Of a DNA stretch of 64,000 nucleotides, positions 2,815 through 57,255 are shown piece after piece (the stretch's first letter is position 1; each line of letters starts with the position of its first letter). The DNA comes from Parcubacteria group bacterium (lineage in GTDB: Bacteria; Patescibacteriota; Minisyncoccia; Phycocordibacterales; UBA2135), in the NCBI GenBank assembly GCA_016180525.1, contig JACPBB010000001.1, positions 251,840-315,839 of the forward strand, given 5' to 3'. The translations under genes were made by a program, and so were the position numbers. Below the pieces are notes generated by a model that saw only the letters and a list, made by a program, of their open reading frames with translations, had not been told where the DNA came from and did no database searches.

Positions 2815-2916
2815 ATTAATTAAATGAAAAATATAAAATGAAAAGCGAAAAATAAATCAAAACTACTTTTAATTTTGCATCGTTATTTTGCGTTTTGCGC
2901 TGTAAGTTTTGCGTTC
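2815..2916 (-). promoter_or_regulatory. conserved upstream element (AAAATGAAAAGCGAAAA ... TTTTGCGTTTTGC), copy upstream of the GT2 gene
   Basis: About 80 nt highly similar to 20243-20330. In gene orientation: GCAAAACGCAAAA...TTTTCGCTTTTCATTTTATATTTTTC then ATG. Confidence 0.6.
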
Positions 2917-4698: not shown

Positions 4699-4809
4699 AA
4701 TAATCCAGATAACCCAAATTATTTATCCGAATAACCCGGATATAATACTAGATATAATAATTTTGACATATAATTATCTGGGTTATTCGGATACATTTAT
4801 ATATTCGGA
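4699..4809. repeat. intergenic palindromic element, family 'AATAATCC / CCGAATAACCC', copy 1
   Basis: CCGAATAACCCGGATATAAT (about 4727-4746) versus the reverse complement of ATTATCTGGGTTATTCGG (about 4773-4790). Shares ACCCAAATTATTTATCCGAATAACCCGGATATAAT core with 9283-9417. Fills the whole gap upstream of the ABC transporter gene. Confidence 0.75.
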
Positions 4810-6222: not shown

Positions 6223-6284
6223 TTTTCGTTTTAAGTTTTACGTTTATCTTACAACCTATAACCTAATACCTAGAACCTTGTTTT

Positions 6285-9282: not shown

Positions 9283-9417
9283 AAATAAAATAATAACCCA
9301 AATAATCCGAATTATTTACTCGAAAATCCCGAATAAAATTGTGAATTAATAACTCTTTGGGGAATGTCATATAATACATTCGTGATTTTCGGGTATATTC
9401 GTAGATTCGGGTTATTG
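9283..9417. repeat. intergenic palindromic element, same family, copy 2
   Basis: AATAACCCAAATAATCCGAATTATTTACTCGAAAATCCCGAATAAAAT ... GATTTTCGGGTATATTCG ... ATTCGGGTTATTG. Fills the gap upstream of the CDP-alcohol phosphatidyltransferase gene. Confidence 0.75.
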
Positions 9418-10299: not shown

Positions 10300-10347
10300 G
10301 AGTTTGATAGTAAATTAAAACAGGAATAAAGACAAGAATGTTGCCTA

Positions 10348-10381
10348 AAGAAAAAACGGGCATGCGCAATGCGCGTGCCCG
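10348..10381 (-). terminator. rho-independent terminator after gene 10391-10867
   Basis: 11-bp GC-rich stem CGGGCATGCGC/GCGCGTGCCCG (one G:U) with AAT loop at about 10357-10381. On the minus strand it is followed by a TTTTTTCTTT tract (plus-strand A-run about 10351-10356). Confidence 0.7.
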
Positions 10382-10390
10382 TAAAACGTT

Positions 10391-20242: not shown

Positions 20243-20330
20243 AAAAATTTAAAATGAAAAGCGAAAACGTAAAATAATTTTGAATTGTTATTTTAAGTTT
20301 TGCGTTTTGCTTTTTGCATTTAGAATTCCT
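20243..20330 (-). promoter_or_regulatory. conserved upstream element, copy upstream of asnB
   Basis: In gene orientation: GCAAAACGCAAAACTTAAAATAAC...TTTTCGCTTTTCATTTTAAATTTTT then ATG. A third, more divergent copy lies at about 6211-6260 upstream of (and overlapping the annotated start of) gene 4810-6222. Confidence 0.6.
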
Positions 20331-21661: not shown

Positions 21662-21772
21662 AAGTAAGTAATAACCAGAATAATCCAGATTTTTTACCCT
21701 AATAACTAACTCAAACGTATGCTGTATCCGGCTTATTCGAGCAATCTATATGTCCGGATTATTATTATAACC
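21662..21772. repeat. intergenic palindromic element, same family, copy 3
   Basis: AATAACCAGAATAATCCAGAT (about 21670-21690) versus the reverse complement of GTCCGGATTATTATTATAACC (about 21752-21772); also CCGGCTTATTCGAG. Fills the gap upstream of gene 20288-21661. Confidence 0.7.
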
Positions 21773-27918: not shown

Positions 27919-29037
27919 TTAGGTTAATTTCTGAACTACATTAAGTAGTTCGCGACCTGCTTTATTCCACGAAAACTTTTTTGCGTGTTCGCGCCCTTTT
28001 TTGATTAAATTTTCACGCAAACCCTTTTCGCTTACTACTCTCTCCATCGCATTTGCAATTTCATTTATCTGAAGCGGGTTAATAAGAAGTGCCGCATCTT
28101 TTACTGTCTCTTCAAGTGATTCATACGGCCCTTGCCCAGATGTAATAACCGGAAGCCCGCAATCCATTGCCTCAAAGACAGGAAGAGCAAAGCCGCCTTC
28201 AAAAATACTTGGAAATACGAGCGCAAATGCCCGCTTATACATATATGATAATTGATTGTCTGTAATAAAGCCCGTAAATTTGACTGCCTGTTCGATACCG
28301 TGGTCTCTTATATATTTACGCATTTCTTCATAATACGGACCTCCTCCTTTCCCAGCGACAACCAACATGTATCCAGGATTATTTTTATAAAATTGAGTAA
28401 AGGCCTTTATGGCGACGAGGGGATTTTTGCGCGGCTTTAATACCCCTACAAAAAGAAAAAACTTTTCCGGAAGTCCCGCCTTCGCTCCACTGCGGCGAGG
28501 TAAGTCTATTTTTTCTTCAGGCAACTGACAAATAGAATCAAAGCCCATGTATACGACAGAAATTTTATCCGGCGAAATGCCGTATAGTTTTATAATTTCA
28601 TCCTTCGTCGTTTGTGATATAGAAACGATATGCCTTGCTCTTTTGAGCGATACTCCGTGATAAAAGCCGAGTATTTTATTGTGTATCGCTGTGCGCAGAT
28701 TCTCCGTTGGTAAATACTGATACGCAAAATCAAGTGCTATAACAATAGATTTTGGCGGCTGCCAAAAAAACGGCATGACGGGGGTGTGAAAAATATAGAT
28801 GTCGGCAGAAGGAGCGTGCCGCATCCTATCAAGCCAAAATGTCCCCTCTCCTAAAACGTGAAGCTTCCAATTTTTTCCGGGGAGCTGCGGGTTTTCCCGT
28901 GGTCTTTTTTTAACAAAAATAATATATTCGTTTTCTGAATCAGCCTCAAGCATTCCTGTCACAAATCCTAAAATCGTGCGGCCGAGCCCAGCCGGTTTGT
29001 CTTCGTCGTAAGGATGTAAGAGGATACCAATGCGCAT
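27919..29037 (-). CDS. GT4 (group 1) glycosyltransferase
   Basis: MRIGILLHPYD N-terminus and the GT-B C-terminal motif FPSIFEGGFALPVFEAMDCGLPVITS. The track ORF extends 45 codons further (to 29172), but that extension is encoded by a palindromic hairpin in the intergenic region, so the start is placed at the internal ATG. Confidence 0.85.
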   Translation of the reverse strand: MRIGILLHPYDEDKPAGLGRTILGFVTGMLEADSENEYIIFVKKRPRENPQLPGKNWKLHVLGEGTFWLDRMRHAPSADIYIFHTPVMPFFWQPPKSIVIALDFAYQYLPTENLRTAIHNKILGFYHGVSLKRARHIVSISQTTKDEIIKLYGISPDKISVVYMGFDSICQLPEEKIDLPRRSGAKAGLPEKFFLFVGVLKPRKNPLVAIKAFTQFYKNNPGYMLVVAGKGGGPYYEEMRKYIRDHGIEQAVKFTGFITDNQLSYMYKRAFALVFPSIFEGGFALPVFEAMDCGLPVITSGQGPYESLEETVKDAALLINPLQINEIANAMERVVSEKGLRENLIKKGREHAKKFSWNKAGRELLNVVQKLT

Positions 29038-29040
29038 AAT

Positions 29041-29140
29041 ATAGATACCAATATACCAATGATTACGAATGATGCTAATAAATACTAATGTAGCGTATTC
29101 GTATCCATTTGTATCATTAGTACAATTCGTATATTGACAA
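29041..29140. repeat. imperfect palindromic promoter-region element built from GTATCATTCGTAT / ATACGAATGATAC modules
   Basis: ATAGATACCAATATACCAATGATTACGAATGAT ... GTATCATTAGTACAATTCGTATATTGAC. About 38 of 45 positions match the reverse complement of 577-620. Confidence 0.5.
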
Positions 29141-29148
29141 GCGAGGAG

Positions 29149-29176
29149 CGAAATGAAAATTGCGATTTTCATTTCG
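29149..29176. other. perfect 12-bp-stem hairpin/palindrome (CGAAATGAAAAT-TGCG-ATTTTCATTTCG)
   Basis: Seen directly in the sequence. Flanked by an outer imperfect inverted repeat TTGACAAGCG...CGCTGTCAA. It explains the spurious MKIAIFIS N-terminal extension of ORF 27919-29172. Confidence 0.7.
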
Positions 29177-29228
29177 TCCGAGCGCTGTCAATATATAAGA
29201 CACAGTGCTTTTATATTAGTACCTGTTA

Positions 29229-29828
29229 TCATTTCTTGATTTCTAACTCCCACACGAGTATTTTAACTGGAATAAGCAGTGACAGATATTGGTCATAAAA
29301 CTTCGAATATTGATGTATAAACGCCTTAAACAGGCGCGTGAGGGGGTTCTGCGACAATTGTGGCCATCCATACCAAAAACCTATTTTTTTAAATTTGTGT
29401 TTTGTATATTGATACCCCGAAAAATGACTGTCTGTATCTAAAAAATAATCCATTGAAGATGAAGTAAAAAAGTGCTTCATCGTGGGATCTGAAAATGCGT
29501 CAATGGAACGAAAATATGGTGTAGATATTATAATGCGGGAACCATTCTTTCCCACGCGAGAAACCTCATTAAAAAAATCAACAAGAGAAGAAAGATGTCC
29601 GATAACACTGTGCGCAAAAAAAACATCAACACTGTTCGCCTCAAGTGGCCACGGCGTTAAATCAAGATTGTGCACGACGTCAACAGACGGAAATGTAAGC
29701 ATATCAATGCCTACTGCTCCCGCTAATTTTGAATTACCGCAACCAAGGTGAAGAACCTTTTTATCAGGAAAAAGATGTTCCTTTGAAACACCTCGATGAG
29801 TGTAAATTTGTAGAGCAATGCTTTGCAT
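29229..29828 (-). CDS. class I SAM-dependent methyltransferase (small)
   Basis: VLHLGCGNSKLAGAVGID, VDVFFAHSVIGHL, GKNGSRIIISTP motifs. Confidence 0.8.
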   Translation of the reverse strand: MQSIALQIYTHRGVSKEHLFPDKKVLHLGCGNSKLAGAVGIDMLTFPSVDVVHNLDLTPWPLEANSVDVFFAHSVIGHLSSLVDFFNEVSRVGKNGSRIIISTPYFRSIDAFSDPTMKHFFTSSSMDYFLDTDSHFSGYQYTKHKFKKIGFWYGWPQLSQNPLTRLFKAFIHQYSKFYDQYLSLLIPVKILVWELEIKK

Positions 29829-29838
29829 AAATATATAT

Positions 29839-29926
29839 GATGCGAAAATAGCGAAATCTATGCGAAATGTGCGAAATTATGAATTTTCTTTTCGTGGCTT
29901 TCGCATACTTTTTGTGGATTTCGTAT
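29839..29926. repeat. about 90-bp repeat element, copy A (GCGAAAT x4 followed by inverted TTTCG(C/T) x3)
   Basis: GATGCGAAAATAGCGAAATCTATGCGAAATGTGCGAAATTATGAATTTTCTTTTCGTGGCTTTCGCATACTTTTTGTGGATTTCGTATC. Copy B at 31625-31713 differs at about 5 positions. It lies immediately upstream of the methyltransferase ATG (29828) and overlaps the last ~17 codons of the aminotransferase ORF. Confidence 0.85.
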
Positions 29927-31040
29927 CGTGTTGTTTACTAAAAAATTCTTTTACCGCCGCAATAACTTTGTCTTTATCTTTTTTGCTCAAATGAGATGAG
30001 GATGGGAGATAGAGACCATTCCACCCCAAATATTCTGAAACTGGAAACAATCCATTTTGTCTATGAGACGGCTGAAGGTGCATCGGTATAAAAAATGCTC
30101 GCGATTCTATCCCTTTTTTTGCGAGAAAATCGATAAGCTTGTCTCTCTCCCCCGGTTTTTTGAGCAGAATCCCGTACATCCAAAAGACCGAGCGAATTCG
30201 AGACTTTTCCGCAGGAAATATCAGGCGGTCTTTAAGAACTGAAAGATTTTTTGTGTAATATTTAGCATTTGCTCGTCTTTTATTTACTAATTCCTCTAGT
30301 CGTTCAAGCTGGGCAAGTCCGAGCGCCGCAAGAAGCGAACTTAACTTCATATTCCACGCAACTTTTTTATGATAATAACGATTTTTACCCTTTCCGGACC
30401 AATAGTGGTCTCTGAATTTTGACACCTCCTCTGCCAATTTTTTATCATTCGTCGCGACCATCCCTCCCTCGCCGGTCGTCACTAATTTATTCGCGTAAAA
30501 ACTAAAACATGCCGCGTCTCCCAATGCTCCCACCTTTTTCCCTTTGTATAAAGCGCCTTGCGCCTCCGCCGCGTCTTCTAAAATAAATAATTTATGTTTT
30601 CGCGCGATTTTTTTTATTTCATCCATATCGCACGGGTGTCCGTAAATATGAACAGGCATAATTGCTTTTGTCCGTTTCGTAATCTTTTTTTCTATTTGGG
30701 TAACGTCAATATTTCCATTTGGCTCACAGTCTACAAAAACAGATTTTGCGCCGCATTGTGCAACCGCGTTTGCGCACGCCGCCATGGTAAATGTAGGAAC
30801 GATGACCTCGTCCCCTTTACGAATACCGAGCGCCCAAAGCGCGAGAAATAAGGCAGAGGCACCGGAGTTTACGGTAATCGCGTATTTCACGCCTGTCTTT
30901 TTTGCAAACGCTTTTTCAAATAACCCAACATATTTAGCCATACCGGAAATGTGCCCTGTTTTAATGGCGTCCATGACATAGCGTATCTCCCGTTGTGTTA
31001 TGTCCGGCTCGCAGACACGAATAATATTCTTAGGTTTCAT
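29877..31040 (-). CDS. DegT/DnrJ/EryC1/StrS-family PLP-dependent sugar aminotransferase
   Basis: GDEVIVPTFTMAACANAV, SFYANKLVTTGEGGMV, AIMPVHIYGHPCDMD. The last ~17 codons are encoded by repeat element A. Confidence 0.9.
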   Translation of the reverse strand: MKPKNIIRVCEPDITQREIRYVMDAIKTGHISGMAKYVGLFEKAFAKKTGVKYAITVNSGASALFLALWALGIRKGDEVIVPTFTMAACANAVAQCGAKSVFVDCEPNGNIDVTQIEKKITKRTKAIMPVHIYGHPCDMDEIKKIARKHKLFILEDAAEAQGALYKGKKVGALGDAACFSFYANKLVTTGEGGMVATNDKKLAEEVSKFRDHYWSGKGKNRYYHKKVAWNMKLSSLLAALGLAQLERLEELVNKRRANAKYYTKNLSVLKDRLIFPAEKSRIRSVFWMYGILLKKPGERDKLIDFLAKKGIESRAFFIPMHLQPSHRQNGLFPVSEYLGWNGLYLPSSSHLSKKDKDKVIAAVKEFFSKQHDTKSTKSMRKPRKENS

Positions 31041-31227
31041 TTTTAAAATTTCTAATTAATCTAATTACTCTAATTATTCTAATCAAATCCCAATTAATTA
31101 AATCCTAAATTAGAAATCCTAAATCCTAAACAAATACAAAATTCAAATGAAAAAATTATTAAGTGTTTTTATTTTTTGAATTTTTGATTTCGATATTGTT
31201 TAGAGTTTAGATATTAGGATTTAGAAT
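31041..31227. repeat. structured 187-bp intercistronic spacer: degenerate about 9-bp tandem repeat (TCTAATTAN x4) plus long imperfect inverted repeat
   Basis: TCTAATTAATCTAATTACTCTAATTATTCTAATCAAA..., AAATCCTAAATTAGAAATCCTAAATCCTAAAC versus the reverse complement of GTTTAGAGTTTAGATATTAGGATTTAGAATTT, and a nested inverted repeat CAAAATTCAAA / TTTGAATTTTG. Confidence 0.6.
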
Positions 31228-31611
31228 TTAAAGAATCTTTACTCTCACCGTATCATCTTCATATCCCTTCACGCCCCTAGCGAGTGTCGTCATGTCAAGC
31301 ATTGCCGCTGGAGAAAGCGCTTTATACGCGTGCACAATATTTGACGGAATACGACTGAACATTCCTTCTTTCAAAATAAATTTTTTCTTATTTTTTCCAT
31401 TTTTGTCTGAGACAACAAAAATGATTTTTCCTTTTAAAATATATGTATATTGTATAGATTTTTTGTGGTAGTGATTACCGCGCACCGCGCCTTTTTTAAA
31501 CGTAATGAGTCCCACATGAGAAAGCGGCTCTTCCACAATATCAAAAATATGCCCACGCGCATCCGTAAACGCGGGCTTAATCATATAATTTTCAACAACA
31601 GATTTTTTCAT
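31228..31611 (-). CDS. cupin-fold sugar nucleotide 3,4-ketoisomerase-like protein (FdtA/WxcM C-terminal-domain-like)
   Basis: 127 aa. GAVRGNHYHKK...NIVHAY His-containing cupin motifs similar to FdtA/QdtA. Context: next to a DegT aminotransferase and a C-methyltransferase. Confidence 0.5.
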   Translation of the reverse strand: MKKSVVENYMIKPAFTDARGHIFDIVEEPLSHVGLITFKKGAVRGNHYHKKSIQYTYILKGKIIFVVSDKNGKNKKKFILKEGMFSRIPSNIVHAYKALSPAAMLDMTTLARGVKGYEDDTVRVKIL

Positions 31612-31624
31612 AAAATAAATACAC

Positions 31625-31713
31625 GATGCGAAAACAGCGAAATCTATGCGAAATGTGCGAAATTATGAATTTTCTTTTCGCGGTTTTCGCATGCTTTTTG
31701 TGGATTTCGCATC
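31625..31713. repeat. about 90-bp repeat element, copy B
   Basis: GATGCGAAAACAGCGAAATCTATGCGAAATGTGCGAAATTATGAATTTTCTTTTCGCGGTTTTCGCATGCTTTTTGTGGATTTCGCATC. Immediately upstream of the ATG of the cupin gene (31611) and just past the stop of the C-methyltransferase gene. Confidence 0.85.
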
Positions 31714-32968
31714 ATACTATTTTTGGTTTGGGTATCGGAATAATAAACTTTCCACCCCGTTTTTTAAATTCCTCCAGATTTTTCATAATCTCTGTCGCGA
31801 AATTCCATGCAAGCAAGAGCGCGTAATCAGGTTGTTCCTTGAGAAGCGTCGCGTCATCATAAATCGGAATAAATGTTCCCGGAGTAAAACGACCAACCTT
31901 CAGTGGATTTTTTTCTGTAATAAAATCAAGAAACGTCTTGTCAATACTGCAGTAATTAAGCAAGGTGTTTCCTTTAGCGGGAGCAGAAATACCCGCGATT
32001 TTTTTACCCTCCCGCTTTAATTGTAGCAGAAGTGAGAGCATATCTCTTTTGTGCCGCTCCACATCCTCTGCAAATTTTTTAAGCCGTGATAAAGAATAGA
32101 TTCCAAATGTTTTTTCTTCTTCAATATAACGAGCAATATCCGGAGATACTTCGTGTTTTCCTTTATGCCCCACATAGTATCGCATACTTCCTCCGAAGTA
32201 ATCGCTTTTTTTAAGGCCAAATAATTCCAATCCGAGACGTTCAAAATATGCCGCCATCGGCTTTACCGATAAGTATCCGACATGTGAATGATAAATAGTG
32301 TCGTATTGAAATTCTTTAATTAAATCAATTACATACGGAGCCTCAACCGCGATAACGCCGTCATCCGCAAGAAGCGTTTTCATTCCTAAAACCGCGTCAT
32401 CAATATCATGCAGATGTGCAAAAACATTCGTCCCGGTAATAACGTGCGCCTTCCCATGCTCTTTTACAATGTCTACGGCAACATTTGTGCTGAAGAAATC
32501 AAGAATGGTCGGGATTCCGTTTTCAATCGCTTTTTTTGCGACATCCGCCGGGTCAACGCCGAGCACCCGCAACCCCTCTTCTTTAAATGAGTGGAGTAGC
32601 GCTCCGACATTGCTGCCGATATCTACCGCGAGGGCGTTTTTGGGAATATTGTGAACAGAACATATATCGTGAGCCATTTCCTTAAAATGTCCGCCGCCTG
32701 TTTTTGTTGTTGCCGCTGATTGATACAGATAATCTGTTTGATACAGAATTTTTGGATTCACCAGATAATCAATTTGAAGGAGCCCACAATCAAGACATGC
32801 AACAAGCCGAAGCGGATATCGTTCTTCGTGCTCGTTTAATTGCTCCTTTGTTGGAAAATGGTCCGAATGGGGCTGATGACTAAGGTCAAGAACTTGCGTT
32901 AAAGAATTACCCTTGCACATGTGACACCGCTCTACCATTTTCCCTCTTTGTGCTTCGCTCATAGCCAT
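31712..32968 (-). CDS. NDP-hexose C-methyltransferase-like (TylCIII/Methyltransf_13+12+14 architecture), paralog 1
   Basis: N-terminal Zn-ribbon CHMCKGNS...CLDCGL, a class I methyltransferase core (VDIGSNVGAL) and a C-terminal C-methyltransferase domain. Paralog of 54519-55757. Confidence 0.7.
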   Translation of the reverse strand: MAMSEAQRGKMVERCHMCKGNSLTQVLDLSHQPHSDHFPTKEQLNEHEERYPLRLVACLDCGLLQIDYLVNPKILYQTDYLYQSAATTKTGGGHFKEMAHDICSVHNIPKNALAVDIGSNVGALLHSFKEEGLRVLGVDPADVAKKAIENGIPTILDFFSTNVAVDIVKEHGKAHVITGTNVFAHLHDIDDAVLGMKTLLADDGVIAVEAPYVIDLIKEFQYDTIYHSHVGYLSVKPMAAYFERLGLELFGLKKSDYFGGSMRYYVGHKGKHEVSPDIARYIEEEKTFGIYSLSRLKKFAEDVERHKRDMLSLLLQLKREGKKIAGISAPAKGNTLLNYCSIDKTFLDFITEKNPLKVGRFTPGTFIPIYDDATLLKEQPDYALLLAWNFATEIMKNLEEFKKRGGKFIIPIPKPKIV

Positions 32969-33084
32969 AGTTGAGATTTATATAGTATTTAACACATTAT
33001 ACAGAAAAAAGTTAATATAGGAGTTCTATAACTAACTATTGACAAAATTTTTATTTACATTAGTGTAAAAATCAGTTTACGGGG

Positions 33085-33465
33085 ATGGAGGCTGTTTTGA
33101 AGGCTCTTTGGCACATTGCTTTGATTTCATTTAGGCCCGATGCGCCTGAGGAGATTCGTAAAGAAATTTTTGATCAATATCAGACCCTGGCAGAAGATTG
33201 CGGGGGCAGAGATACCGGTATTCTTTTTTGGAAAGTAGCCCACAATTTAGATCTACGAAAAAACGTGCATTTGGTGGAAATTGCCGTATTTAAAGACGAT
33301 GCCGCTCTGCAGGCGTTCAGAGGACACCCCAAACACAAAGAATTGACTGATGTGCTTTCAAAAGTTGCCGACTGGTGGGTCGGCGATGTATACCAGACTC
33401 TTCCTAATGATTTAATTACCGAAACCCCTTCGCATGAGGCGGCACTTTTAGATGGAGTTGATTAA
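33085..33465 (+). CDS. Dabb-type (stress-responsive dimeric alpha+beta barrel) domain protein
   Basis: 126 aa. VHLVEIAVFKDDAALQAFRGHPKH is typical of Dabb/EthD-like proteins. Confidence 0.45.
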   Translation: MEAVLKALWHIALISFRPDAPEEIRKEIFDQYQTLAEDCGGRDTGILFWKVAHNLDLRKNVHLVEIAVFKDDAALQAFRGHPKHKELTDVLSKVADWWVGDVYQTLPNDLITETPSHEAALLDGVD

Positions 33466-34190
33466 TGAAAAAACTAGAAATGAGAATTTGGGAGCGATTT
33501 CCAGAGCTCGTTCAGGCAGTAAAACTTGACCACGACAAAGCAGATCTCTTTCGAGTACACGACATTTTCCACGCACTACGCGTTGGAGAATGGGCATACA
33601 GAATTGCATATTCTGAATGGGGAGATGTGCGACTTGCAGAGCTCGCTGGAATAGCGGGAATCTGCCACAATGCTGACCACATGCTCTTTAAAAAAGACGG
33701 ACCGGATGAGCGTAGTGTAAAACACGATCGCATACGAACAGTGATTAAAAGGTGGCTTATATACACTGACACAAAATCAAACGAGCAAGAGTTAATTATA
33801 CAGGCAGTTATAAACCATACGAACAAAAACAGCGATTTTGATCCGAAGATACTGATAGCGCTTATGGACGCAGATCGTGTTGTAAATGCTGAAGCTGACG
33901 TCATTATGAGATCAGCACAATTTCGCAATTTGCCACCAATTGATTACAAACACTTCTTGAAAGATCCTAGTGCGACATACTGGAATCCAAAGACTGTAAT
34001 CTATGACCTGTCTGGGTGCCTTGACTGGTTTGAGGAAGGATGTCCGGTTTGTGTAAGAACACAGCTGGCAAAGCAAGAAGGAGGGTTTCTTGCGGCATAT
34101 CTTAAAAGATACCTAGATACAGTAGAACAACAGCTTAAAGATATAGGGCTTCTACCATGTCCGTTTGATGAAACATGGAAGGTGTCATAA
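33465..34190 (+). CDS. HD-domain-like phosphohydrolase (putative)
   Basis: RVHDIFHALRV (H...HD) then CHNADH and KHD motifs. Start overlaps the upstream stop (TAATG). Confidence 0.4.
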   Translation: MKKLEMRIWERFPELVQAVKLDHDKADLFRVHDIFHALRVGEWAYRIAYSEWGDVRLAELAGIAGICHNADHMLFKKDGPDERSVKHDRIRTVIKRWLIYTDTKSNEQELIIQAVINHTNKNSDFDPKILIALMDADRVVNAEADVIMRSAQFRNLPPIDYKHFLKDPSATYWNPKTVIYDLSGCLDWFEEGCPVCVRTQLAKQEGGFLAAYLKRYLDTVEQQLKDIGLLPCPFDETWKVS

Positions 34191-36366: not shown

Positions 36367-36479
36367 AATAAAAAATTAAAGCTTAAAACAAAAAGTGCAA
36401 AATAGCAATGTAATAAAGCAGAATATTTTGAACTTTGAGTTGTTATTTTAACTTCTGTGTTTTTACATTTTAATTTTAT

Positions 36480-47377: not shown

Positions 47378-48445
47378 CTATTTTCTGTGGTTTAACAGGC
47401 ATTGTTCAAAAGATTGTTTATACAAACGCAAATATTCTTCTTTATCTTTATAAGGATACTTGTATTCTAAAGGTTTGGGAAGTTCTTTTTTATAAAGCCG
47501 CAGGAGTATCTCTCCCAGTGACTGCGGGGTGTGTTCCGCGATATACGCCCCGACTTCATGGGCAACGCCTACATCAGTAGCAACAACTGGAATACCGGCA
47601 ACTCGCGCCTCAACCATCTGCAATCCATACCCTTCATACCACGAGGTTACAAGAAGCGCATCCGCGCCTTTATAATATCCCGCGACATCATTTTGCCAAC
47701 CGAGAAAAAGAACGTTATTTTGTAACTTGTAACGTGTAACTTGTAACTCAGGGTCGTTACGCTCCGAGCCGTCGCCGATGATGACAAGGCAAGAATTTGG
47801 AACATGCCTTTGGAATATATTAAACGCTTCTAGCGCAAGCATCGGATTTTTTTCTTTTTCAAGCCGCCCCACCCAGAGAATCGTGAAATCGTACCGTTTT
47901 GGTAAAGATGTTGGTTGCGCATTTTTAATTTTTTCTGCGTCTATCCAAATAGGCAGGACCGCGCAGCTTGTAGCTTGTAGCTTGTAGCTTGTAGCAAGAG
48001 AATTTTTTATTTTTTCACTAACCACGCGAATGCAATCCGCCCTCAAAAGAGTGCGCCGCAAAAACATTTTTCGGATGAAATTTTTTATGCTCGCCCTGGC
48101 AAAATACGGAGAGAAAACATCCGTATGAACTTGCAGTTGTAATTTTGCGTTTAAAGCTGACGCAAGGCGTGAGGCAATGAACCCTGTTTCAAACGGGTCT
48201 TGCGCTGTCACAATATCAATATCGCCCCGCACTCGTTTAACAATATTACCAATACCCCACAAAGAACTAAGCGGCTCATGAAAAACAAAAACGTTTGGAG
48301 AGATGCGTTCTTCTTTATATTTTCCAATCGAAATTACACAAATATAAAGATTTTCAAATAATTTCCCATATTCAACCATCCGCGCACGCACAGCGCTTCC
48401 TTTGTCAAAAATCTTCGCATCCCGTGAGAGCATTAAAACTTTCAT
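47378..48445 (-). CDS. GT4 (group 1) glycosyltransferase containing two heptanucleotide repeat tracts
   Basis: GRLEKEKNPMLALEAF...GDGSERNDPE...YEGYGLQMVEARVAGIPVVATDVG. Carries (TTGTAAC)x4 at about 47720-47747 and (CTTGTAG)x4 at about 47967-47994. Confidence 0.85.
   Translation of the reverse strand: MKVLMLSRDAKIFDKGSAVRARMVEYGKLFENLYICVISIGKYKEERISPNVFVFHEPLSSLWGIGNIVKRVRGDIDIVTAQDPFETGFIASRLASALNAKLQLQVHTDVFSPYFARASIKNFIRKMFLRRTLLRADCIRVVSEKIKNSLATSYKLQATSCAVLPIWIDAEKIKNAQPTSLPKRYDFTILWVGRLEKEKNPMLALEAFNIFQRHVPNSCLVIIGDGSERNDPELQVTRYKLQNNVLFLGWQNDVAGYYKGADALLVTSWYEGYGLQMVEARVAGIPVVATDVGVAHEVGAYIAEHTPQSLGEILLRLYKKELPKPLEYKYPYKDKEEYLRLYKQSFEQCLLNHRK
47720..47747. repeat. heptanucleotide tandem repeat TTGTAAC x4 (third unit GTGTAAC) inside a GT4 coding sequence
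   Basis: ttgtaacttgtaacgtgtaacttgtaac encodes LQVTRYKLQ. Confidence 0.9.
47967..47994. repeat. heptanucleotide tandem repeat CTTGTAG x4 inside the same GT4 coding sequence
   Basis: cttgtagcttgtagcttgtagcttgtag encodes ATSYKLQATS. Confidence 0.9.
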
Positions 48446-49538: not shown

Positions 49539-51071
49539 TTAGAGCAATGTAACCAGTGATTCTATCGCTTTTTCTTTTGAAAACGATTTTGCCTTTTCTA
49601 TCCCGTTTTTTATCAGGTCGTTTCGCATGGCCCCATTCTTAAGAAGAGTTTTGACAGCGTTTTTGATTTCACTCTTGTCATTATATGAAACAAGCAGGCC
49701 CTCTTTTTGGTTCTCTATAAGCTCCGAGTTTCCTCCGATATTAGTCGTAATAATAGGGGTTCCGAGCGCCATTACTTCAAGCAATTGATGAGAAAACCCC
49801 TCATAGCCGGTATTGAGCACAAAGATATCGGCGGCTCGTATATATTCCGTAAGCATGCCAGATGACAATCTGCCGACTAAAAAAACTACATCTTGTAACT
49901 TGTAACTTGTAACTTGTAACTTGAGTGTTTCCCGCTCCGGTCCGTCTCCGGCTATATATAATTTAATATCGGGAATTTCTTTTTTTAGTTCAGCGATAAC
50001 GTCAATGAGCGCGGAAAATCCTTTCCACGGCACAAGCCGCCCCGCAGAAAAAATTACTGTTCCGTGCATTCCCAATTTTTCCCTTACGTTTTCTTTGGGC
50101 GCTAACGAAGCCGAAAACTCAAACGAATTATAAATGACTTTGATTTTCAGGCCTTCAATTCCCCACTGTTGTACGATTTTTTTGAGATATTCACTCGGCA
50201 CAACAATATGGCCTGCGTTTCGCGCGACAAGATGCTCAATTTTTCTCCGAGCTTCCGTCACGAAATCAAATTTTCTTTCTTGAAACTCCTCTGGCGTAAT
50301 AAATTTTCCATCGGTGTTTTTCATTTTTCGCTTTTCATTTTGCACTTGATACTGTTCCCACGCGTAGTCTCCCGCGATGCGTAACAAAAATTTTTTTCTA
50401 AGCAGTTTGGACACAATAAGCGCGGGAAATCCAACGCTTACCGGGTCAAGTGCGTATATAATTTCAGCTTCTGTGGCCCTAAAGCAAATAATTAAAAAAT
50501 AAACGAGGTGTCGAATAATTTTAGGCAGCTTGCGAACACTGCTAAAAGATACAATCGTAATGTGAATATTGCGACTTGGAAGCTCTGTTTCAAGAAGTTT
50601 TGCGTACGTAGCCGGGCCACCGATATCAGGAGGATAGAGCGGAGTGGCTAGGAGGACTCTCCCTTTCTGAGTGTGATTAAAAATAATATTTCCATATATA
50701 AAAAATGTTACGACCGCGATGGCGCCTGAAGAAAATACCTGCGCAAGCATGTACCAGAGGCCTGCAACAGAAACAAGTACGTACATAAAAAGGGCGTTCG
50801 CGGCAAGCCCCGTGAGCGCGGTTATAAGATATAGGGCGACTTGCCGTGAAATATCGTGCGTATGAGTATTTTTAAATGTCCATAATTTCTGCAACAGAAA
50901 GCTCGCAAAAAACGCGAAAACAAACGCAATCGTTGAGGAGAGAAGATACCACAGACCAACGATGTCAGTAAGCACATATAAAAAACTAAGCGATACAAAG
51001 GCCGCTATTCCTCCCGCAATTAGATATCGCGCGATTTTATTTTGAATAAATTTTAAAAACATAATTTTCAT
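49539..51071 (-). CDS. GtrA-like membrane domain fused to a GT4 glycosyltransferase; contains a heptanucleotide repeat tract
   Basis: N-terminal 4-TM GtrA-like segment (IARYLIAGGIAAFVSLSFLYVL...) followed by a GT4 domain (...GDGPERETL...GFSHQLLEVMALGTPIITTNIGG). (CTTGTAA)x4 at about 49892-49919 encodes KLQVTSYKLQ. Confidence 0.75.
   Translation of the reverse strand: MKIMFLKFIQNKIARYLIAGGIAAFVSLSFLYVLTDIVGLWYLLSSTIAFVFAFFASFLLQKLWTFKNTHTHDISRQVALYLITALTGLAANALFMYVLVSVAGLWYMLAQVFSSGAIAVVTFFIYGNIIFNHTQKGRVLLATPLYPPDIGGPATYAKLLETELPSRNIHITIVSFSSVRKLPKIIRHLVYFLIICFRATEAEIIYALDPVSVGFPALIVSKLLRKKFLLRIAGDYAWEQYQVQNEKRKMKNTDGKFITPEEFQERKFDFVTEARRKIEHLVARNAGHIVVPSEYLKKIVQQWGIEGLKIKVIYNSFEFSASLAPKENVREKLGMHGTVIFSAGRLVPWKGFSALIDVIAELKKEIPDIKLYIAGDGPERETLKLQVTSYKLQDVVFLVGRLSSGMLTEYIRAADIFVLNTGYEGFSHQLLEVMALGTPIITTNIGGNSELIENQKEGLLVSYNDKSEIKNAVKTLLKNGAMRNDLIKNGIEKAKSFSKEKAIESLVTLL
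49892..49919. repeat. heptanucleotide tandem repeat CTTGTAA x4 inside a GT4 coding sequence
   Basis: cttgtaacttgtaacttgtaacttgtaa. Same unit as in gene 47378-48445. Confidence 0.9.
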
Positions 51072-52258
51072 GATGCTGTTTCAAAAATATGTTTCATTGT
51101 GTTAGCAATTTTATTCCAATCGTGTTTTTCTGTAGCAACTTCACGAGCATTTTTAACAATAGTACTTATCGCTTCTTTGTGCTTCGGATTGATAATAAAA
51201 TCTACTTGATCTGCAACGCTTTTGGGGTCTTTTACTCCGCATATAAACCCGGTTTCTCTGTCTTTTAGAAAGTCTACTATGCCGCCAACGGCTGTTCCGA
51301 TAACCGGAATTCCCGCGGCCATCGCCTCAATAAAAGAATTGCCCATACCCTCCGAAAGAGAGGGACGAACAAAAATATCCGAAGATTTAAGATATGGTGG
51401 AACTTTTTTCCCGTCAATAAATCCCAAAAAATGAACTCTGCGCGAAACACCCACATCTTCCGCGAGTTTTTTGAGCATCCGCTCATCAGGCCCAACCCCG
51501 AGTACAATAAAATGAACGGTTTCTGGTAAATATCTAAGCGCCTTTATAACATCATCAACGGCGTTCTTCTTCACCAGCCGTGATGTCGTAATTAAAGCCT
51601 TATCTTTTTCCTGTATTTTTAAACTTTTTCGTAGCTCCTCTGTTTTATGTTTTTCGATTTGCGTTTTGAATTTTTCTACATCTACCCCATTCGGCACAAC
51701 GGAGCTCTTCCCTTTAAACCCCATTTTCCTTCCCCATTTTTCAAGAAACGAAGATTCGCCGACGAGATGGTCGGCAAGCGCAAATCCCCTTACAAACAAA
51801 GGCCATGCAGGCAACATTGTGCGTTCTATGTATTCGGGAGGATCTCCCTCTTGAAGCGTTAGAACATAAAAAACGTCTCTATAAAATGTTTTAAAAAGAC
51901 CGGCAGGAATTCCTGCAGAGTGTGCCATCATAGCCCACATGCCGTCAAAGTGGTGTGTGCGATGAAGCGCGGCCCCTTTTAAAAAAGCGAGAATCTGAAA
52001 AATATATTTGTTGAGGTGCAAAGGAAATAGGCGGAAATCGGCAGAGTTTGGACTCATTTTTGCAAAACCGATGCGATGCACAAAAACATTTCCAACCTTT
52101 TCTGATTTTGGCAGTGCCTTGTCAAACCGCGCAGTCACCATGTGAAACTCAAATTCATCAGGAGAAATTCTGTCCGTGATTTCTTTTATGGCGACTTCCG
52201 CACCCCCCACAAACGGATAATACGCAAGAGAAAATATAAGAACTTTCTTTGGTGTCAT
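51068..52258 (-). CDS. GT4 (group 1) glycosyltransferase
   Basis: VLIFSLAYYPFVGGAEVAI N-terminus and C-terminal EGMGNSFIEAMAAGIPVIGTAVGG. Confidence 0.85.
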   Translation of the reverse strand: MTPKKVLIFSLAYYPFVGGAEVAIKEITDRISPDEFEFHMVTARFDKALPKSEKVGNVFVHRIGFAKMSPNSADFRLFPLHLNKYIFQILAFLKGAALHRTHHFDGMWAMMAHSAGIPAGLFKTFYRDVFYVLTLQEGDPPEYIERTMLPAWPLFVRGFALADHLVGESSFLEKWGRKMGFKGKSSVVPNGVDVEKFKTQIEKHKTEELRKSLKIQEKDKALITTSRLVKKNAVDDVIKALRYLPETVHFIVLGVGPDERMLKKLAEDVGVSRRVHFLGFIDGKKVPPYLKSSDIFVRPSLSEGMGNSFIEAMAAGIPVIGTAVGGIVDFLKDRETGFICGVKDPKSVADQVDFIINPKHKEAISTIVKNAREVATEKHDWNKIANTMKHIFETAS

Positions 52259-57204: not shown

Positions 57205-57238
57205 AAGAAAAAACGTCTGAAGAAATTACTTCAGACGT
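57205..57238 (-). terminator. rho-independent terminator after the NYN-domain gene
   Basis: ACGTCTGAAG-AAATTA-CTTCAGACGT 10-bp stem. On the minus strand it is followed by TTTTTTCTTG. Confidence 0.7.
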
Positions 57239-57255
57239 TTATGAAAAACTTTAAA

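What the first reader, a model, noticed from the sequence alone, without database searches (positions are those of the whole stretch)
29839..29926. About 90-bp near-identical repeat element (copy A) with an iteron-like array: GCGAAAT x4 then inverted TTTCGC x3, abutting a start codon
Two copies about 94% identical, at 29839-29926 and 31625-31713. Each ends 10-13 nt before the ATG of a minus-strand gene: the small methyltransferase 29229-29828 and the FdtA-like cupin 31228-31611. Internally there are four direct GCGAAA(T) half-sites spaced about 9-11 bp apart, roughly one helical turn, followed by three inverted TTTCG(C/T) sites. That layout fits either an operator array for a multimeric DNA-binding protein or a long RNA hairpin (GCGAAA pairs with UUUCGC). 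No regulator gene is present in the window. Copy A also supplies the last ~17 codons of the aminotransferase ORF.
Basis: seen in the sequence. Interest (0 to 1): 0.65.

Follow-up and report, generated by a model that had tools for sequence, protein, structure and literature searches.

The report
Mobile hairpin repeat between operon genes
The two 89-base repeats are copies of a small hairpin-forming insertion element sitting exactly between neighbouring genes of a sugar-modification operon in a Parcubacteria genome; in related genomes the same two arms enclose a small nuclease gene, so this looks like little-known selfish DNA rather than a gene switch.

Summary
There are two copies (29839-29927 and 31625-31713), 94.4% identical, and each is an imperfect palindrome of four ~10-nt units per arm. 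The operator/iteron reading is not supported. Both copies lie inside an operon whose promoter is upstream of the C-methyltransferase. In related Parcubacteria the same two gene junctions are empty (overlapping ATGA stop/start) or hold unrelated hairpins. The element has one clear homologue, at the same aminotransferase-to-methyltransferase junction in relative L196. At three independent loci in other Parcubacteria, arms with the same four-unit layout enclose a 133-149 aa GxxExxY (PDDEXK_3) nuclease gene. An ORF-less copy is nested in one of these loci. An analogous hairpin in L191 encloses a four-helix-bundle "23S rRNA intervening-sequence" protein gene. I conclude the window's repeats are ORF-less, MITE-like derivatives of a palindrome-bounded selfish element that settles at stop/start junctions. 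Copy B is a recent copy of copy A. Mobilisation by the nuclease, and tolerance because the transcribed hairpin folds out of the mRNA, are inferences. Genome-wide copy number could not be measured.

The parts
29839..29927 (-). Copy A of the palindromic element (89-nt core). Orientation is given in mRNA sense, because all flanking genes are on the minus strand.
   Evidence: covariance model R1 gives 81.3 bits on the minus strand
31625..31713 (-). Copy B of the palindromic element (89-nt core).
   Evidence: R1 gives 82.9 bits on the minus strand
29890..29927 (-). Copy A, 5' arm in mRNA sense: GATACGAAAT-CCACAAAAAG-TATGCGAAAG-CCACGAAAAG, four alternating long and short units. It also encodes part of the aminotransferase tail.
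29877..29889 (-). Copy A loop (13 nt). It contains the aminotransferase stop codon TAA at 29877-29879.
29839..29876 (-). Copy A, 3' arm in mRNA sense (four TTTCGC-type units).
31676..31713 (-). Copy B, 5' arm in mRNA sense: GATGCGAAAT-CCACAAAAAG-CATGCGAAAA-CCGCGAAAAG.
31663..31675 (-). Copy B loop (13 nt).
31625..31662 (-). Copy B, 3' arm in mRNA sense.
29877..29927 (-). Element-encoded C-terminal tail of the DegT-family aminotransferase (DTKSTKSMRKPRKENS plus stop).
31712..31716 (-). Left TATGA. It contains the TGA stop of the C-methyltransferase (31712-31714) and is the outermost part of copy B's 5' inverted repeat.
31608..31612 (-). Right TATGA, containing the cupin start codon (31609-31611). 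With the left TATGA it brackets a 104-nt insertion relative to the empty site CAAAAATAGTATGAAAAAAG in L192.
29829..29838 (-). A+T-rich spacer between copy A's 3' arm and the methyltransferase ATG (29826-29828). It has no Shine-Dalgarno sequence.
31612..31624 (-). A+T-rich spacer between copy B's 3' arm and the cupin ATG. It has no Shine-Dalgarno sequence.

Best explanation
The two repeats are ORF-less (MITE-like) copies of a palindrome-bounded insertion element found in Parcubacteria. They sit precisely at stop/start junctions inside an otherwise conserved dTDP-sugar modification operon: C-methyltransferase, cupin/FdtA-like isomerase, DegT aminotransferase, small methyltransferase, glycosyltransferase.

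Shown:
- Each copy is an inverted repeat of four alternating long and short units, AT(G/C)CGAAA and (A/G)CGAAA.
- Both junctions are empty or differently occupied in related genomes, so the copies are insertions.
- The element is homologous to one at the same aminotransferase-to-methyltransferase junction in relative L196.
- Arms with the same four-unit layout enclose a GxxExxY (PD-(D/E)XK) nuclease gene at three independent loci in other Parcubacteria.
- ORF-less and ORF-bearing forms coexist in the same genomes.

Inferred:
- Copy A is the older resident. Copy B was copied from it 1.8 kb upstream into the ATGA stop/start overlap of the C-methyltransferase and cupin genes, leaving TATGA at both ends.
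- Mobility depends on a protein that recognises the repeated units or the extruded hairpin. The enclosed nuclease, acting in trans, is the best candidate.
- The insertion is tolerated because in the polycistronic mRNA the arms pair. That would bring the upstream stop and the downstream start back together, and may offer an RNase III site, as in 23S rRNA intervening sequences.
- It is not a transcriptional operator.
For: Repeat and palindrome:
-. RNA fold: copy A -39.5 on the + strand and -20.3 on the minus strand; copy B -37.7 and -31.4 kcal/mol. z-scores range from -3.9 to -7.4.

Operon context:
- Pfam scans.
- A conserved promoter-like motif upstream of the C-methyltransferase in the window, L191, L192 and L196.

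Empty sites:
- In L192 the C-methyltransferase stop and cupin start overlap (CAAAAATAGTATGAAAAAAG). The window reads CAAAAATAG-TATGA-[99 nt]-TATGA-AAAAAA.
- L194/L195 and L199 have the aminotransferase and methyltransferase overlapping.
- Gene order is the same in all six relatives, so no cassette moved with the repeats.

Homology:
- Smith-Waterman against the L196 junction element gives z = 7.2 (copy B) and 10.6 (copy A) relative to dinucleotide shuffles. Other hairpin types give z of 2 or less.
- blastn of L196 against the window runs into both arms of copy A.
- GxxExxY-flanking arms against copies A and B give z = 2.1-8.3, and 6 of 10 comparisons give z > 4.7.

ORF-bearing forms:
- L196 6085-6606, L200/L201 and L210-L215.
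- Long-range arm pairing is kept in the whole-element MFE folds.

ORF-less relatives:
- L196 junction A holds nested copies. L200 4407-4502 scores 65 bits with model R1 and was not in the training set.

Arm covariation:
- 94.3% of cells pair, and 4 pairs show compensatory changes. Controls with partners slid by 1-3 columns pair at 17-54%.

Nuclease:

Analogue:
- In L191 a four-helix-bundle (PF05635/TIGR02436) gene is enclosed by TAGCTT-unit inverted arms; the joined arms fold at -36.8 kcal/mol.
- The Coxiella 23S intervening sequence has the same build: an inverted-repeat stem, direct heptamer repeats and an S23p ORF in the loop, excised by RNase III (PMC4990558).

Age:
- The copies are 94% identical, against 70-76% DNA identity between the genomes.
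Against: - Only two copies are known in this genome. The other 280 kb of the contig and the rest of the MAG could not be read, so 'dispersed repeat' is not shown for this genome.
- No GxxExxY gene, transposase or other candidate mobilising gene lies in the 64-kb window.
- There is no consistent target-site duplication. TATGA flanks copy B, but copy A has CACGA and TATGC. The L196 GxxExxY element compared with the empty site in L199 shows no duplication.
- The TATGA of copy B could equally be microhomology between the element's end and the target.
- The nuclease has never been shown to move anything. An unrelated four-helix-bundle gene sits in the same kind of hairpin, which suggests the ORFs may be cargo rather than the engine.
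- On the mRNA strand the second unit pair is mismatched (A.C), and copy A folds only to -20 kcal/mol. Antisense folding is better, which weakens any mRNA-level role.
- Exact-pattern scans of the public collections found no further homologue.
Confidence: 0.65

Rival explanations
1. A host-beneficial intercistronic RNA hairpin. The element exists because the transcribed stem-loop processes or stabilises the polycistronic mRNA (RNase III or 3'-exonuclease barrier), or tunes translational coupling of the downstream gene, which lacks a Shine-Dalgarno sequence. Its repetition would reflect selection, not mobility.
For: - It lies within an operon, starting at or inside the upstream stop and ending 10-13 nt before the next ATG.
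- Predicted folding is strong.
- Many other junctions in this gene cluster and in relatives also carry long hairpins.
- Precedents exist in Correia/NEMIS elements cleaved by RNase III (PMC2649163) and in rRNA intervening sequences (PMC4990558).
Against: - The orthologous junctions work without it: ATGA overlaps in L192, L194 and L199.
- The mRNA strand folds worse than the antisense strand. Mismatches on the mRNA strand are A.C rather than G.U.
- There is no Rfam match.
- The same arms enclose a nuclease gene elsewhere, which a pure RNA-regulatory origin does not explain.
Confidence: 0.15
2. Hairpins grown in place. This lineage expands short tandem repeats by slippage and makes inverted copies by template switching. 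The two near-identical copies would result from gene conversion between neighbouring junction hairpins, with no dedicated mobility.
For: - The genome is full of short-period repeats, even in frame inside glycosyltransferase genes.
- Each junction has its own unit type: GCAAAA, CCGAAT, CTAAAT, CTAATTA.
- There is no consistent target duplication.
- All 11 differences between the copies are transitions.
Against: - No relative has any CGAAA-type hairpin at the C-methyltransferase/cupin junction that could have been converted.
- The same four-unit arm layout recurs at unrelated junctions in different genomes and around the same ORF family.
- Nested insertions occur.
- A CCGAAT-type arm is 87% identical between L194 and the window, while flanking genes are 65-74% identical.
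Confidence: 0.1
3. Operator or iteron array. The GCGAAAT units at one-helical-turn spacing would bind a multimeric transcription regulator or replication initiator that controls the two downstream genes.
For: - Unit spacing is 9-11 bp, with direct units followed by inverted ones.
- Superficially similar GCGAAAT arrays exist in rumen Clostridia and Poribacteria.
Against: - The position is intra-operonic, not at the conserved promoter.
- The element is absent from the orthologous sites in most relatives.
- The motif is not enriched elsewhere in the window.
- No regulator gene lies in the window.
- There is no promoter-like hit in the element.
- The Clostridia and Poribacteria arrays share only the searched motif, not the element.
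Confidence: 0.04
4. Integron-like attC recombination sites that bound a mobile [cupin + aminotransferase] cassette.
For: - Two similar imperfect palindromes of attC-like size (89 nt) flank a two-gene block in a co-oriented gene array.
- The strand that folds best is antisense to the genes, as with attC bottom strands.
Against: - There are no RYYYAAC ... GTTRRRY core sites at the ends (read directly from the sequence).
- No integrase lies in the window.
- The four genes keep the same order in all six relatives whether or not hairpins are present, so the block is not a cassette.
Confidence: 0.02

Closest known systems
23S rRNA intervening sequences (IVS), e.g. Coxiella burnetii, Leptospira, Salmonella
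   Same: Both are insertions bounded by inverted repeats that form a long stem. In the Coxiella IVS the 5' region upstream of the S23p ORF carries short direct repeats (heptamers). An optional small ORF sits in the loop: the S23p/four-helix-bundle protein in Coxiella, and the same family in the L191 hairpin. ORF-less forms of about 100 nt exist (the ~100-nt figure for Salmonella and Campylobacter IVS is from my own knowledge). Distribution among relatives is sporadic, and no transposase is known (PMC4990558).
   Different: These elements sit in protein-coding operons at stop/start junctions, not in 23S rRNA helices. The ORF associated with this particular arm family is a PD-(D/E)XK GxxExxY nuclease. 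RNase III excision is untested here.
Correia repeat-enclosed elements (CREE/NEMIS) of Neisseria
   Same: Both are inverted-repeat-bounded, non-coding elements of about 100-150 bp inserted next to genes and co-transcribed with them. In Neisseria the hairpin is bound or cleaved by RNase III and changes expression of neighbouring genes (PMC2649163; review PMC2229807).
   Different: There is no sequence similarity, no TA duplication and no IHF site. The arms here are built of four ~10-nt units. Copy number is unknown here, against hundreds in Neisseria. The elements here insert exactly at ORF ends.
MITEs in general (non-autonomous derivatives of IS elements)
   Same: The element is small and non-coding, has terminal inverted repeats, coexists with longer ORF-bearing relatives that share the same ends, and shows nested insertions (review PMC10969869).
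   Different: The ORF-bearing relative encodes a 133-149 aa PD-(D/E)XK nuclease, not a DDE or HUH transposase. There is no consistent target-site duplication.
REP/BIME elements with RAYT transposases
   Same: Both are extragenic palindromes found between genes of operons and likely to form hairpins in mRNA. Both are proposed to be mobilised in trans by a dedicated protein.
   Different: REPs are 20-40 nt with a conserved GTAG-type 5' tetranucleotide. No such motif and no Y1/RAYT gene were seen here.
Rickettsia palindromic elements (RPE)
   Same: Both are palindromic insertions that can end up translated as part of host proteins. Here that means basic C-terminal tails on the aminotransferase (window and L196) and on a GxxExxY protein (L200).
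   Different: RPEs insert in frame inside genes. These elements insert at the 3' end or gene junction. The comparison rests on my own knowledge of the RPE literature and was not tested here.

Membership tests
MITE | Terminal inverted repeats | tested here: met
   Arms of about 38 nt pair along their length. Across 7 family members 94.3% of cells pair.
MITE | Target-site duplication of fixed length | tested here: inconclusive
   TATGA flanks copy B when compared with the empty site in L192. Copy A has CACGA and TATGC. The L196 GxxExxY element compared with the L199 empty site shows no duplication.
MITE | Many dispersed copies in one genome | not testable with these tools
   Two copies in 64 kb. 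The rest of the 344-kb contig and the MAG were not retrievable. Logan contigs from 6 samples break inside the element, as expected of a repeat.
MITE | An autonomous partner with the same ends that encodes a transposase | tested here: inconclusive
   Partners with the same arm layout exist (L196, L200, L210), but they encode a GxxExxY PD-(D/E)XK nuclease of unknown activity, not a known transposase.
23S rRNA intervening sequence | Located in a 23S (or 16S) rRNA helix | tested here: not met
   Located between protein-coding genes. No rRNA hit in the Rfam scan of 28500-33500.
23S rRNA intervening sequence | Inverted-repeat stem enclosing a loop that may carry an S23p/four-helix-bundle ORF | tested here: met
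   The stem is met in the window. The ORF-in-loop form is seen in relatives: a four-helix-bundle gene in L191 and GxxExxY genes in L196, L200 and L210.
23S rRNA intervening sequence | Excised from the transcript by RNase III | not testable with these tools
   Needs transcript-end mapping or an in-vitro assay.
REP/BIME | 20-40 nt palindrome with a conserved GTAG-type 5' tetranucleotide | tested here: not met
   The palindrome is 89 nt with no GTAG at the ends.
REP/BIME | RAYT (Y1 transposase) in the genome | tested here: inconclusive
   None in the window by Pfam. The rest of the genome was not seen.
Integron attC | R''/R' core sites RYYYAAC ... GTTRRRY at the ends | tested here: not met
   The ends read GATGCGAAA ... 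TTTCGCATC. The flanks contain no GTTRRRY.
Integron attC | Bounds gene cassettes that vary as units; integrase nearby | tested here: not met
   Gene order is identical in six relatives with or without hairpins. No integrase in the window.
Operator / iteron array | Repeated units at about one helical turn | tested here: met
   Spacing of 9, 11 and 9 nt.
Operator / iteron array | Sits at a promoter or origin and is conserved at orthologous sites, with a cognate binding-protein gene nearby | tested here: not met
   Position is intra-operonic. The element is absent at orthologous junctions in most relatives. No regulator lies in the window.
Intrinsic terminator | Short G+C-rich stem followed directly by a U tract | tested here: not met
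   The scan reports no terminator-like site in either copy. Ordinary terminators elsewhere in the window look different, for example in 10300-10390 and 57207-57255.
Known RNA families (Rfam 15) | Match to a curated covariance model | tested here: not met
   The only hit is 17.8 bits at E = 9, far below the gathering score.

The most novel reading that the evidence does not exclude
The repeats may be miniature members of an undescribed class of selfish elements in candidate-phyla-radiation bacteria. In this reading, a hairpin-bounded cassette carries either a GxxExxY PD-(D/E)XK nuclease or a four-helix-bundle ('23S IVS protein') gene. It inserts precisely at stop/start junctions of operons and is rendered harmless because its arms pair in the transcript. 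That would be the same design as rRNA intervening sequences, which would then be one habitat of a general 'fold-out' mobile element rather than an rRNA peculiarity. The nuclease, acting on the unit arrays or on the extruded or transcribed hairpin, would be the mobilising (homing or excision) enzyme. It would also mobilise the ORF-less copies, such as the two in this window, in trans.
Probability: 0.3. Interest if true: 0.8.

Novelty: new variant of a known kind. Interest (0 to 1): 0.55.

Why it matters
If this is right, it gives a genomic context and a testable role to two widespread protein families of unknown function: GxxExxY/PDDEXK_3 and the four-helix-bundle S23p/IVS proteins. It also offers a lead on an old open question, namely what rRNA intervening sequences are and how they spread. 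It would show that the tiny, regulator-poor genomes of Parcubacteria tolerate frequent insertion between translationally coupled genes. There is a practical side as well. These hairpins break short-read assemblies, add spurious basic tails to annotated proteins, and can be mistaken for regulatory sites.

Tried and rejected
- **Genome-collection scan.** I scanned for GCGAAAT-N(3-5)-GCGAAAT-N(1-3)-GCGAAAT. blastn showed that none shares more than the searched motif. The scan was therefore uninformative and may have missed the source genome.
- **Metagenome scan.** A scan with the exact 18-mer ATGCGAAATGTGCGAAAT gave 53 hits. Nearly all extend only 18-27 nt beyond chance; five loci carrying another GCGAAAT array reach 38 nt at 84% identity.
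- **Viral contigs.** 10 unrelated hits.
- **Phage and plasmid blastn.** No match.
- **Rfam.** Nothing.
- **Translated-element search.** I searched 5.8 billion proteins with all six translated frames of the element, to catch copies inside miscalled ORFs. There were no hits.
- **Literature.** I found no description of such elements in CPR bacteria, or of GxxExxY genes enclosed by inverted repeats, in the held library.
- **Cassette (attC) reading.** Rejected because gene order is conserved.
- **Promoter and terminator readings.** Rejected.
- **Similarity beyond the 89-nt core.** On the C-methyltransferase side it is host sequence that is also present in the empty site of L192, so I do not count it as part of the element.
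- **Weak covariance-model hits.** Hits of 25-37 bits to the GCAAAA-type and CCGAAT-type hairpins are matched by equally strong hits in control loci. I treat these as class resemblance, not homology.
- **Source genome.** The NCBI contig could not be fetched: the exact protein P0001 is not on record for look-up.
Full report
**1. The observation**

The window (64 kb, 40% G+C) carries two copies of an 89-nt sequence at 29839-29927 and 31625-31713. They differ at 5 positions (94.4% identity). With the flanks included there are 11 differences in 104 nt, and all are transitions. There is no third copy in the window, even at relaxed blastn settings.

Each copy has four GCGAAA units spaced 9, 11 and 9 nt apart. 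These are followed by three TTTCG(C/T) units and one degenerate unit (TTTTTGT). Only 0.09 such hexamers would be expected in 89 nt. So is the aminotransferase tail: 16 codons plus the stop, which NCBI's own annotation also includes.

**2. Anatomy**

The element is an imperfect palindrome. As RNA the + strand folds to -39.5 kcal/mol (copy A) and -37.7 (copy B). The minus strand, which is the mRNA strand of all flanking genes, folds to -20.3 (A) and -31.4 (B). All four values are well beyond dinucleotide shuffles, with z from -3.9 to -7.4. As DNA the two strands are about equal, at -15 to -22 kcal/mol.

In mRNA sense the 5' arm reads GATGCGAAAT-CCACAAAAAG-CATGCGAAAA-CCGCGAAAAG, which is four alternating long and short units. 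The 3' arm has four TTTCGC-type units. The second unit pair is mismatched (A.C) on the mRNA strand and forms G.U on the antisense strand. That difference explains the asymmetry between the strands.

**3. Context**

Pfam places the copies inside a co-directional sugar-modification operon:
- C-methyltransferase, 31712-32968
- [copy B]
- cupin/FdtA-like protein, 31228-31611
- a 187-nt low-complexity hairpin
- DegT aminotransferase, 29877-31040
- [copy A]
- small methyltransferase, 29229-29828
- another hairpin
- GT4 glycosyltransferase

The whole window encodes glycan biosynthesis genes plus a few others. I found no transposase, integrase or DNA-binding regulator, and no GxxExxY or four-helix-bundle gene. 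A promoter-like motif, TTTTTTCTGTATAATGTGTTAAATACTATAT at 32980-33010, lies upstream of the C-methyltransferase. It is conserved in the relatives. Neither copy contains a consensus promoter or terminator, and Rfam has no match.

The source is an NCBI MAG labelled 'Parcubacteria group bacterium', on a contig of 344,533 bp. Logan assemblies from six runs carry identical genes, and their contigs end inside the element, as assemblers do at repeats.

**4. Both copies are insertions**

I retrieved six syntenic relatives through aminotransferase homologues of 75-88% amino-acid identity. Their DNA is 70-76% identical to the window. Gene order is the same in all of them.

State of junction B (C-methyltransferase to cupin):

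| Genome | State |
|---|---|
| L192 | ATGA overlap (CAAAAATAGTATGAAAAAAG) |
| L194 | 1-nt spacer |
| L199 | the two genes fused |
| L196 | 25-nt spacer |
| L191 | unrelated 154-nt hairpin of CTAATTA units |
| window | CAAAAATAG-TATGA-[99 nt]-TATGA-AAAAAA |

State of junction A (aminotransferase to methyltransferase):

| Genome | State |
|---|---|
| L194/L195 | ATGA overlap |
| L199 | 8-nt overlap |
| L191 | 15-nt spacer after a tail built of ATCAGCG repeats |
| L193 | 97-nt hairpin of GCAAAA units |
| L192 | hairpin of CTAATTA units |
| L196/L197 | an element built of NCGAAAY units |

Because gene order is constant, the two repeats do not bound a mobile cassette. This rules out the attC reading, and the ends also lack the RYYYAAC/GTTRRRY core sites.

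**5. Relatives of the element**

Among the junction hairpins, only the L196 element is significantly similar to the window's copies. Smith-Waterman gives z = 7.2 (copy B) and 10.6 (copy A) against dinucleotide shuffles. The other hairpin types give z of 2 or less. The blastn alignment of L196 to the window runs from the flanking genes into both arms of copy A. Copy A therefore appears to be the older, possibly inherited, resident. Copy B is 94% identical to A, while the genomes differ by about 28%, so B is a recent intragenomic copy.

At the next junction in L196, arms with the same layout enclose a 133-aa gene. The 5' arm is AATCCGAAAT-TGCGAAAAA-TTATCCGAAAC-TACGAAAT, with its inverse on the other side. 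The gene matches GxxExxY (TIGR04256) and PDDEXK_3 (PF13366). Close homologues of that protein at two further, different junctions are enclosed by the same arms. These are L200/L201, and L210-L215; the latter come mainly from the same run series as the window's organism, though from a different genome.

In all three loci the minimum-energy fold of the whole 500-600-nt element keeps the long-range pairing between the arms.

ORF-less copies coexist with the ORF-bearing ones:
- L196 junction A holds two nested copies.
- L200 4407-4502 is a complete four-plus-four-unit hairpin inserted at the 3' end of the nuclease ORF. It gives that protein a 14-aa basic tail, just as copy A does to the aminotransferase.

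A covariance model built from the arms scores that untrained L200 copy at 65 bits and the window copies at 81-83 bits. For that model I aligned the arms of seven members. In five rows I replaced the loop or ORF with a common placeholder, so only the arm columns are informative. In that alignment 94.3% of cells pair, and four pairs change on both sides (for example C-G to G-C in both long units). With partners slid by 1-3 columns, pairing falls to 17-54%. With seven sequences this is modest but consistent evidence that the arms are kept complementary.

**6. The enclosed genes**

In L191, the junction that holds the nuclease element in L196 instead holds a four-helix-bundle gene (PF05635 '23S_rRNA_IVP', TIGR02436). 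It is enclosed by inverted arms made of four TAGCTT units, and the joined arms fold to -36.8 kcal/mol. This is the protein family found in the loop of 23S rRNA intervening sequences. The Coxiella IVS has a 28-bp inverted-repeat stem, direct heptamer repeats and the S23p ORF in the loop, and RNase III excises it (PMC4990558).

**7. Interpretation**

What is shown:
- The element is a hairpin-forming insertion.
- It is absent from orthologous sites in most relatives.
- It is homologous to arms that enclose a nuclease gene elsewhere.
- ORF-less and ORF-bearing forms coexist.

What is inferred:
- Mobilisation in trans by that nuclease, or by another protein that reads the unit array or the hairpin.
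- Preference for stop/start overlaps as targets.
- Tolerance because the transcribed arms pair and restore the proximity of the upstream stop and the downstream start, possibly with RNase III cleavage.

I did not find a consistent target duplication. TATGA brackets copy B. It could be a duplication, or it could be microhomology with the element's own end: TATGATGCGAAA corresponds to AATAATCCGAAA in the other members. Where the upstream ORF ends at the element boundary, its stop codon (TAA or TGA) lies in the outermost triplets of the arm; in L196 and copy B it directly precedes the first unit. Copy A, and the L196 nuclease element compared with the empty site in L199, show no duplication. Two unrelated ORF families occupy the same kind of hairpin, so the ORFs may be cargo rather than the engine.

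**8. What it is not**

- It is not an operator or iteron at a promoter. The reasons are its position, its absence at orthologous sites, the lack of motif enrichment elsewhere, and the absence of a regulator gene.
- It is not a member of any Rfam family.
- It is not REP/BIME, because of its length and the lack of GTAG.
- It is not an attC site.
- It is not an intrinsic terminator.

It works most like Correia/NEMIS elements and rRNA intervening sequences, but it is a member of neither (PMC2649163, PMC4990558).

**9. Limits**

- Genome-wide copy number is unknown.
- The genome-collection scan was saturated by unrelated GCGAAAT arrays. The metagenome scan with an exact 18-mer returned essentially only chance-length matches, plus five loci carrying another GCGAAAT array. 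Both scans would miss diverged copies.
- A search of 5.8 billion predicted proteins with all six translated frames of the element found nothing.
- Searches of phages and plasmids found nothing.
- Weak covariance-model hits (25-37 bits) to other junction hairpins are no better than hits in control loci. I do not claim that all junction hairpins of this lineage are one family.

**10. Verdict**

The hairpin reading is right and the operator reading is wrong. The best explanation, at confidence about 0.65, is an ORF-less derivative of a palindrome-bounded element associated with a GxxExxY nuclease. I rate it a new variant of a known kind (MITE-like or IVS-like palindromic insertions). Interest is moderate. 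It would be higher if the link between the nuclease, the four-helix-bundle 'IVS protein' and junction hairpins proves general.

Noticed in passing
window 2815-2916, 4699-4809, 6223-6284, 9283-9417, 20243-20287, 21662-21772, 29129-29200, 31041-31227, 36367-36479: Many other gene junctions of this glycan cluster are filled by long imperfect palindromes. Their arms are short direct repeats with a different unit at each site (GCAAAA, CCGAAT/GGGTTATT, CTAAAT, CTAATTA). They end right at the next ATG with no Shine-Dalgarno sequence. Several fold with z of -4 to -7. Ordinary terminators elsewhere in the window look quite different.
   Followed up: partly
window 4691-4750 vs L194 5748-5808: A CCGAAT-type hairpin arm is 87% identical between two genomes at non-orthologous junctions, while the flanking genes are only 65-74% identical. 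This suggests recent spread or strong constraint on a second hairpin family. Copies are at window 4699-4809, 9283-9417 and 21662-21772, and at L194 5607-5800.
   Followed up: partly
window 47700-47748 and 49873-49921 (minus-strand genes 47378-48445 and 49539-51071): Tandem GTTACAA heptamers lie in frame inside two GT4 glycosyltransferase genes. They encode LQVT(S/R)YKLQ at the same linker position in both proteins.
   Followed up: no
window 50302-50347 and 51628-51673: GCAAAA/GCGAAAA-type unit arrays, the same kind as in the junction hairpins, occur in frame inside glycosyltransferase ORFs. One example encodes ...QVQNEKRKMKNTDGK....
   Followed up: no
window 32980-33010 (minus strand); also L191 ~790-830, L192 ~2590-2620, L196 ~2280-2312, L193 ~55-85: A conserved promoter-like block (AACYTTTTTCTRTATAATRTGTTAAATAYTATAT) lies upstream of the first gene of the operon in every relative. 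It gives a picture of what a real promoter looks like in this lineage.
   Followed up: partly
L191 4570-5030: A four-helix-bundle gene (PF05635 23S_rRNA_IVP, TIGR02436) sits between the small methyltransferase and GT4 genes. It is enclosed by four TAGCTT units upstream and four AAGCTA units at and after its 3' end. The same junction holds a GxxExxY element in L196, a CCGAAT-type hairpin in L194, a different hairpin in the window, and is an ATGA overlap in L199.
   Followed up: partly
L153 12520-12585 (MWVZ01000039.1): This locus was fetched for an unrelated chance 18-mer match. It turned out to carry a perfect junction hairpin of GATTCA(A/G) units between two co-directional genes. That shows the hairpin-of-short-units design occurs beyond the close relatives.
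   Followed up: no
L036 5728-5790, L060 5010-5090 (rumen Clostridia MAGs); L007 5280-5330 (Poribacteria): Unrelated arrays of 5-6 direct (AT)GCGAAAT units at 10-11-bp spacing. In the Clostridia they are followed by one or two inverted TTTCG units and lie about 190 nt upstream of an AAA/DUF4143 ATPase gene in what looks like a mobile region. In Poribacteria the motif recurs at many loci.
   Followed up: partly
window 27919-29172: The listed 417-aa GT4 ORF is over-extended at its 5' end through the 29129-29200 hairpin. Alignment with relatives puts the true start near 29043 (MRIGILLHPY...).
   Followed up: partly
window 60175-62229: A TrwB/TraG-like type IV coupling protein gene lies at the edge of the window, next to the glycan cluster.
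   Followed up: no
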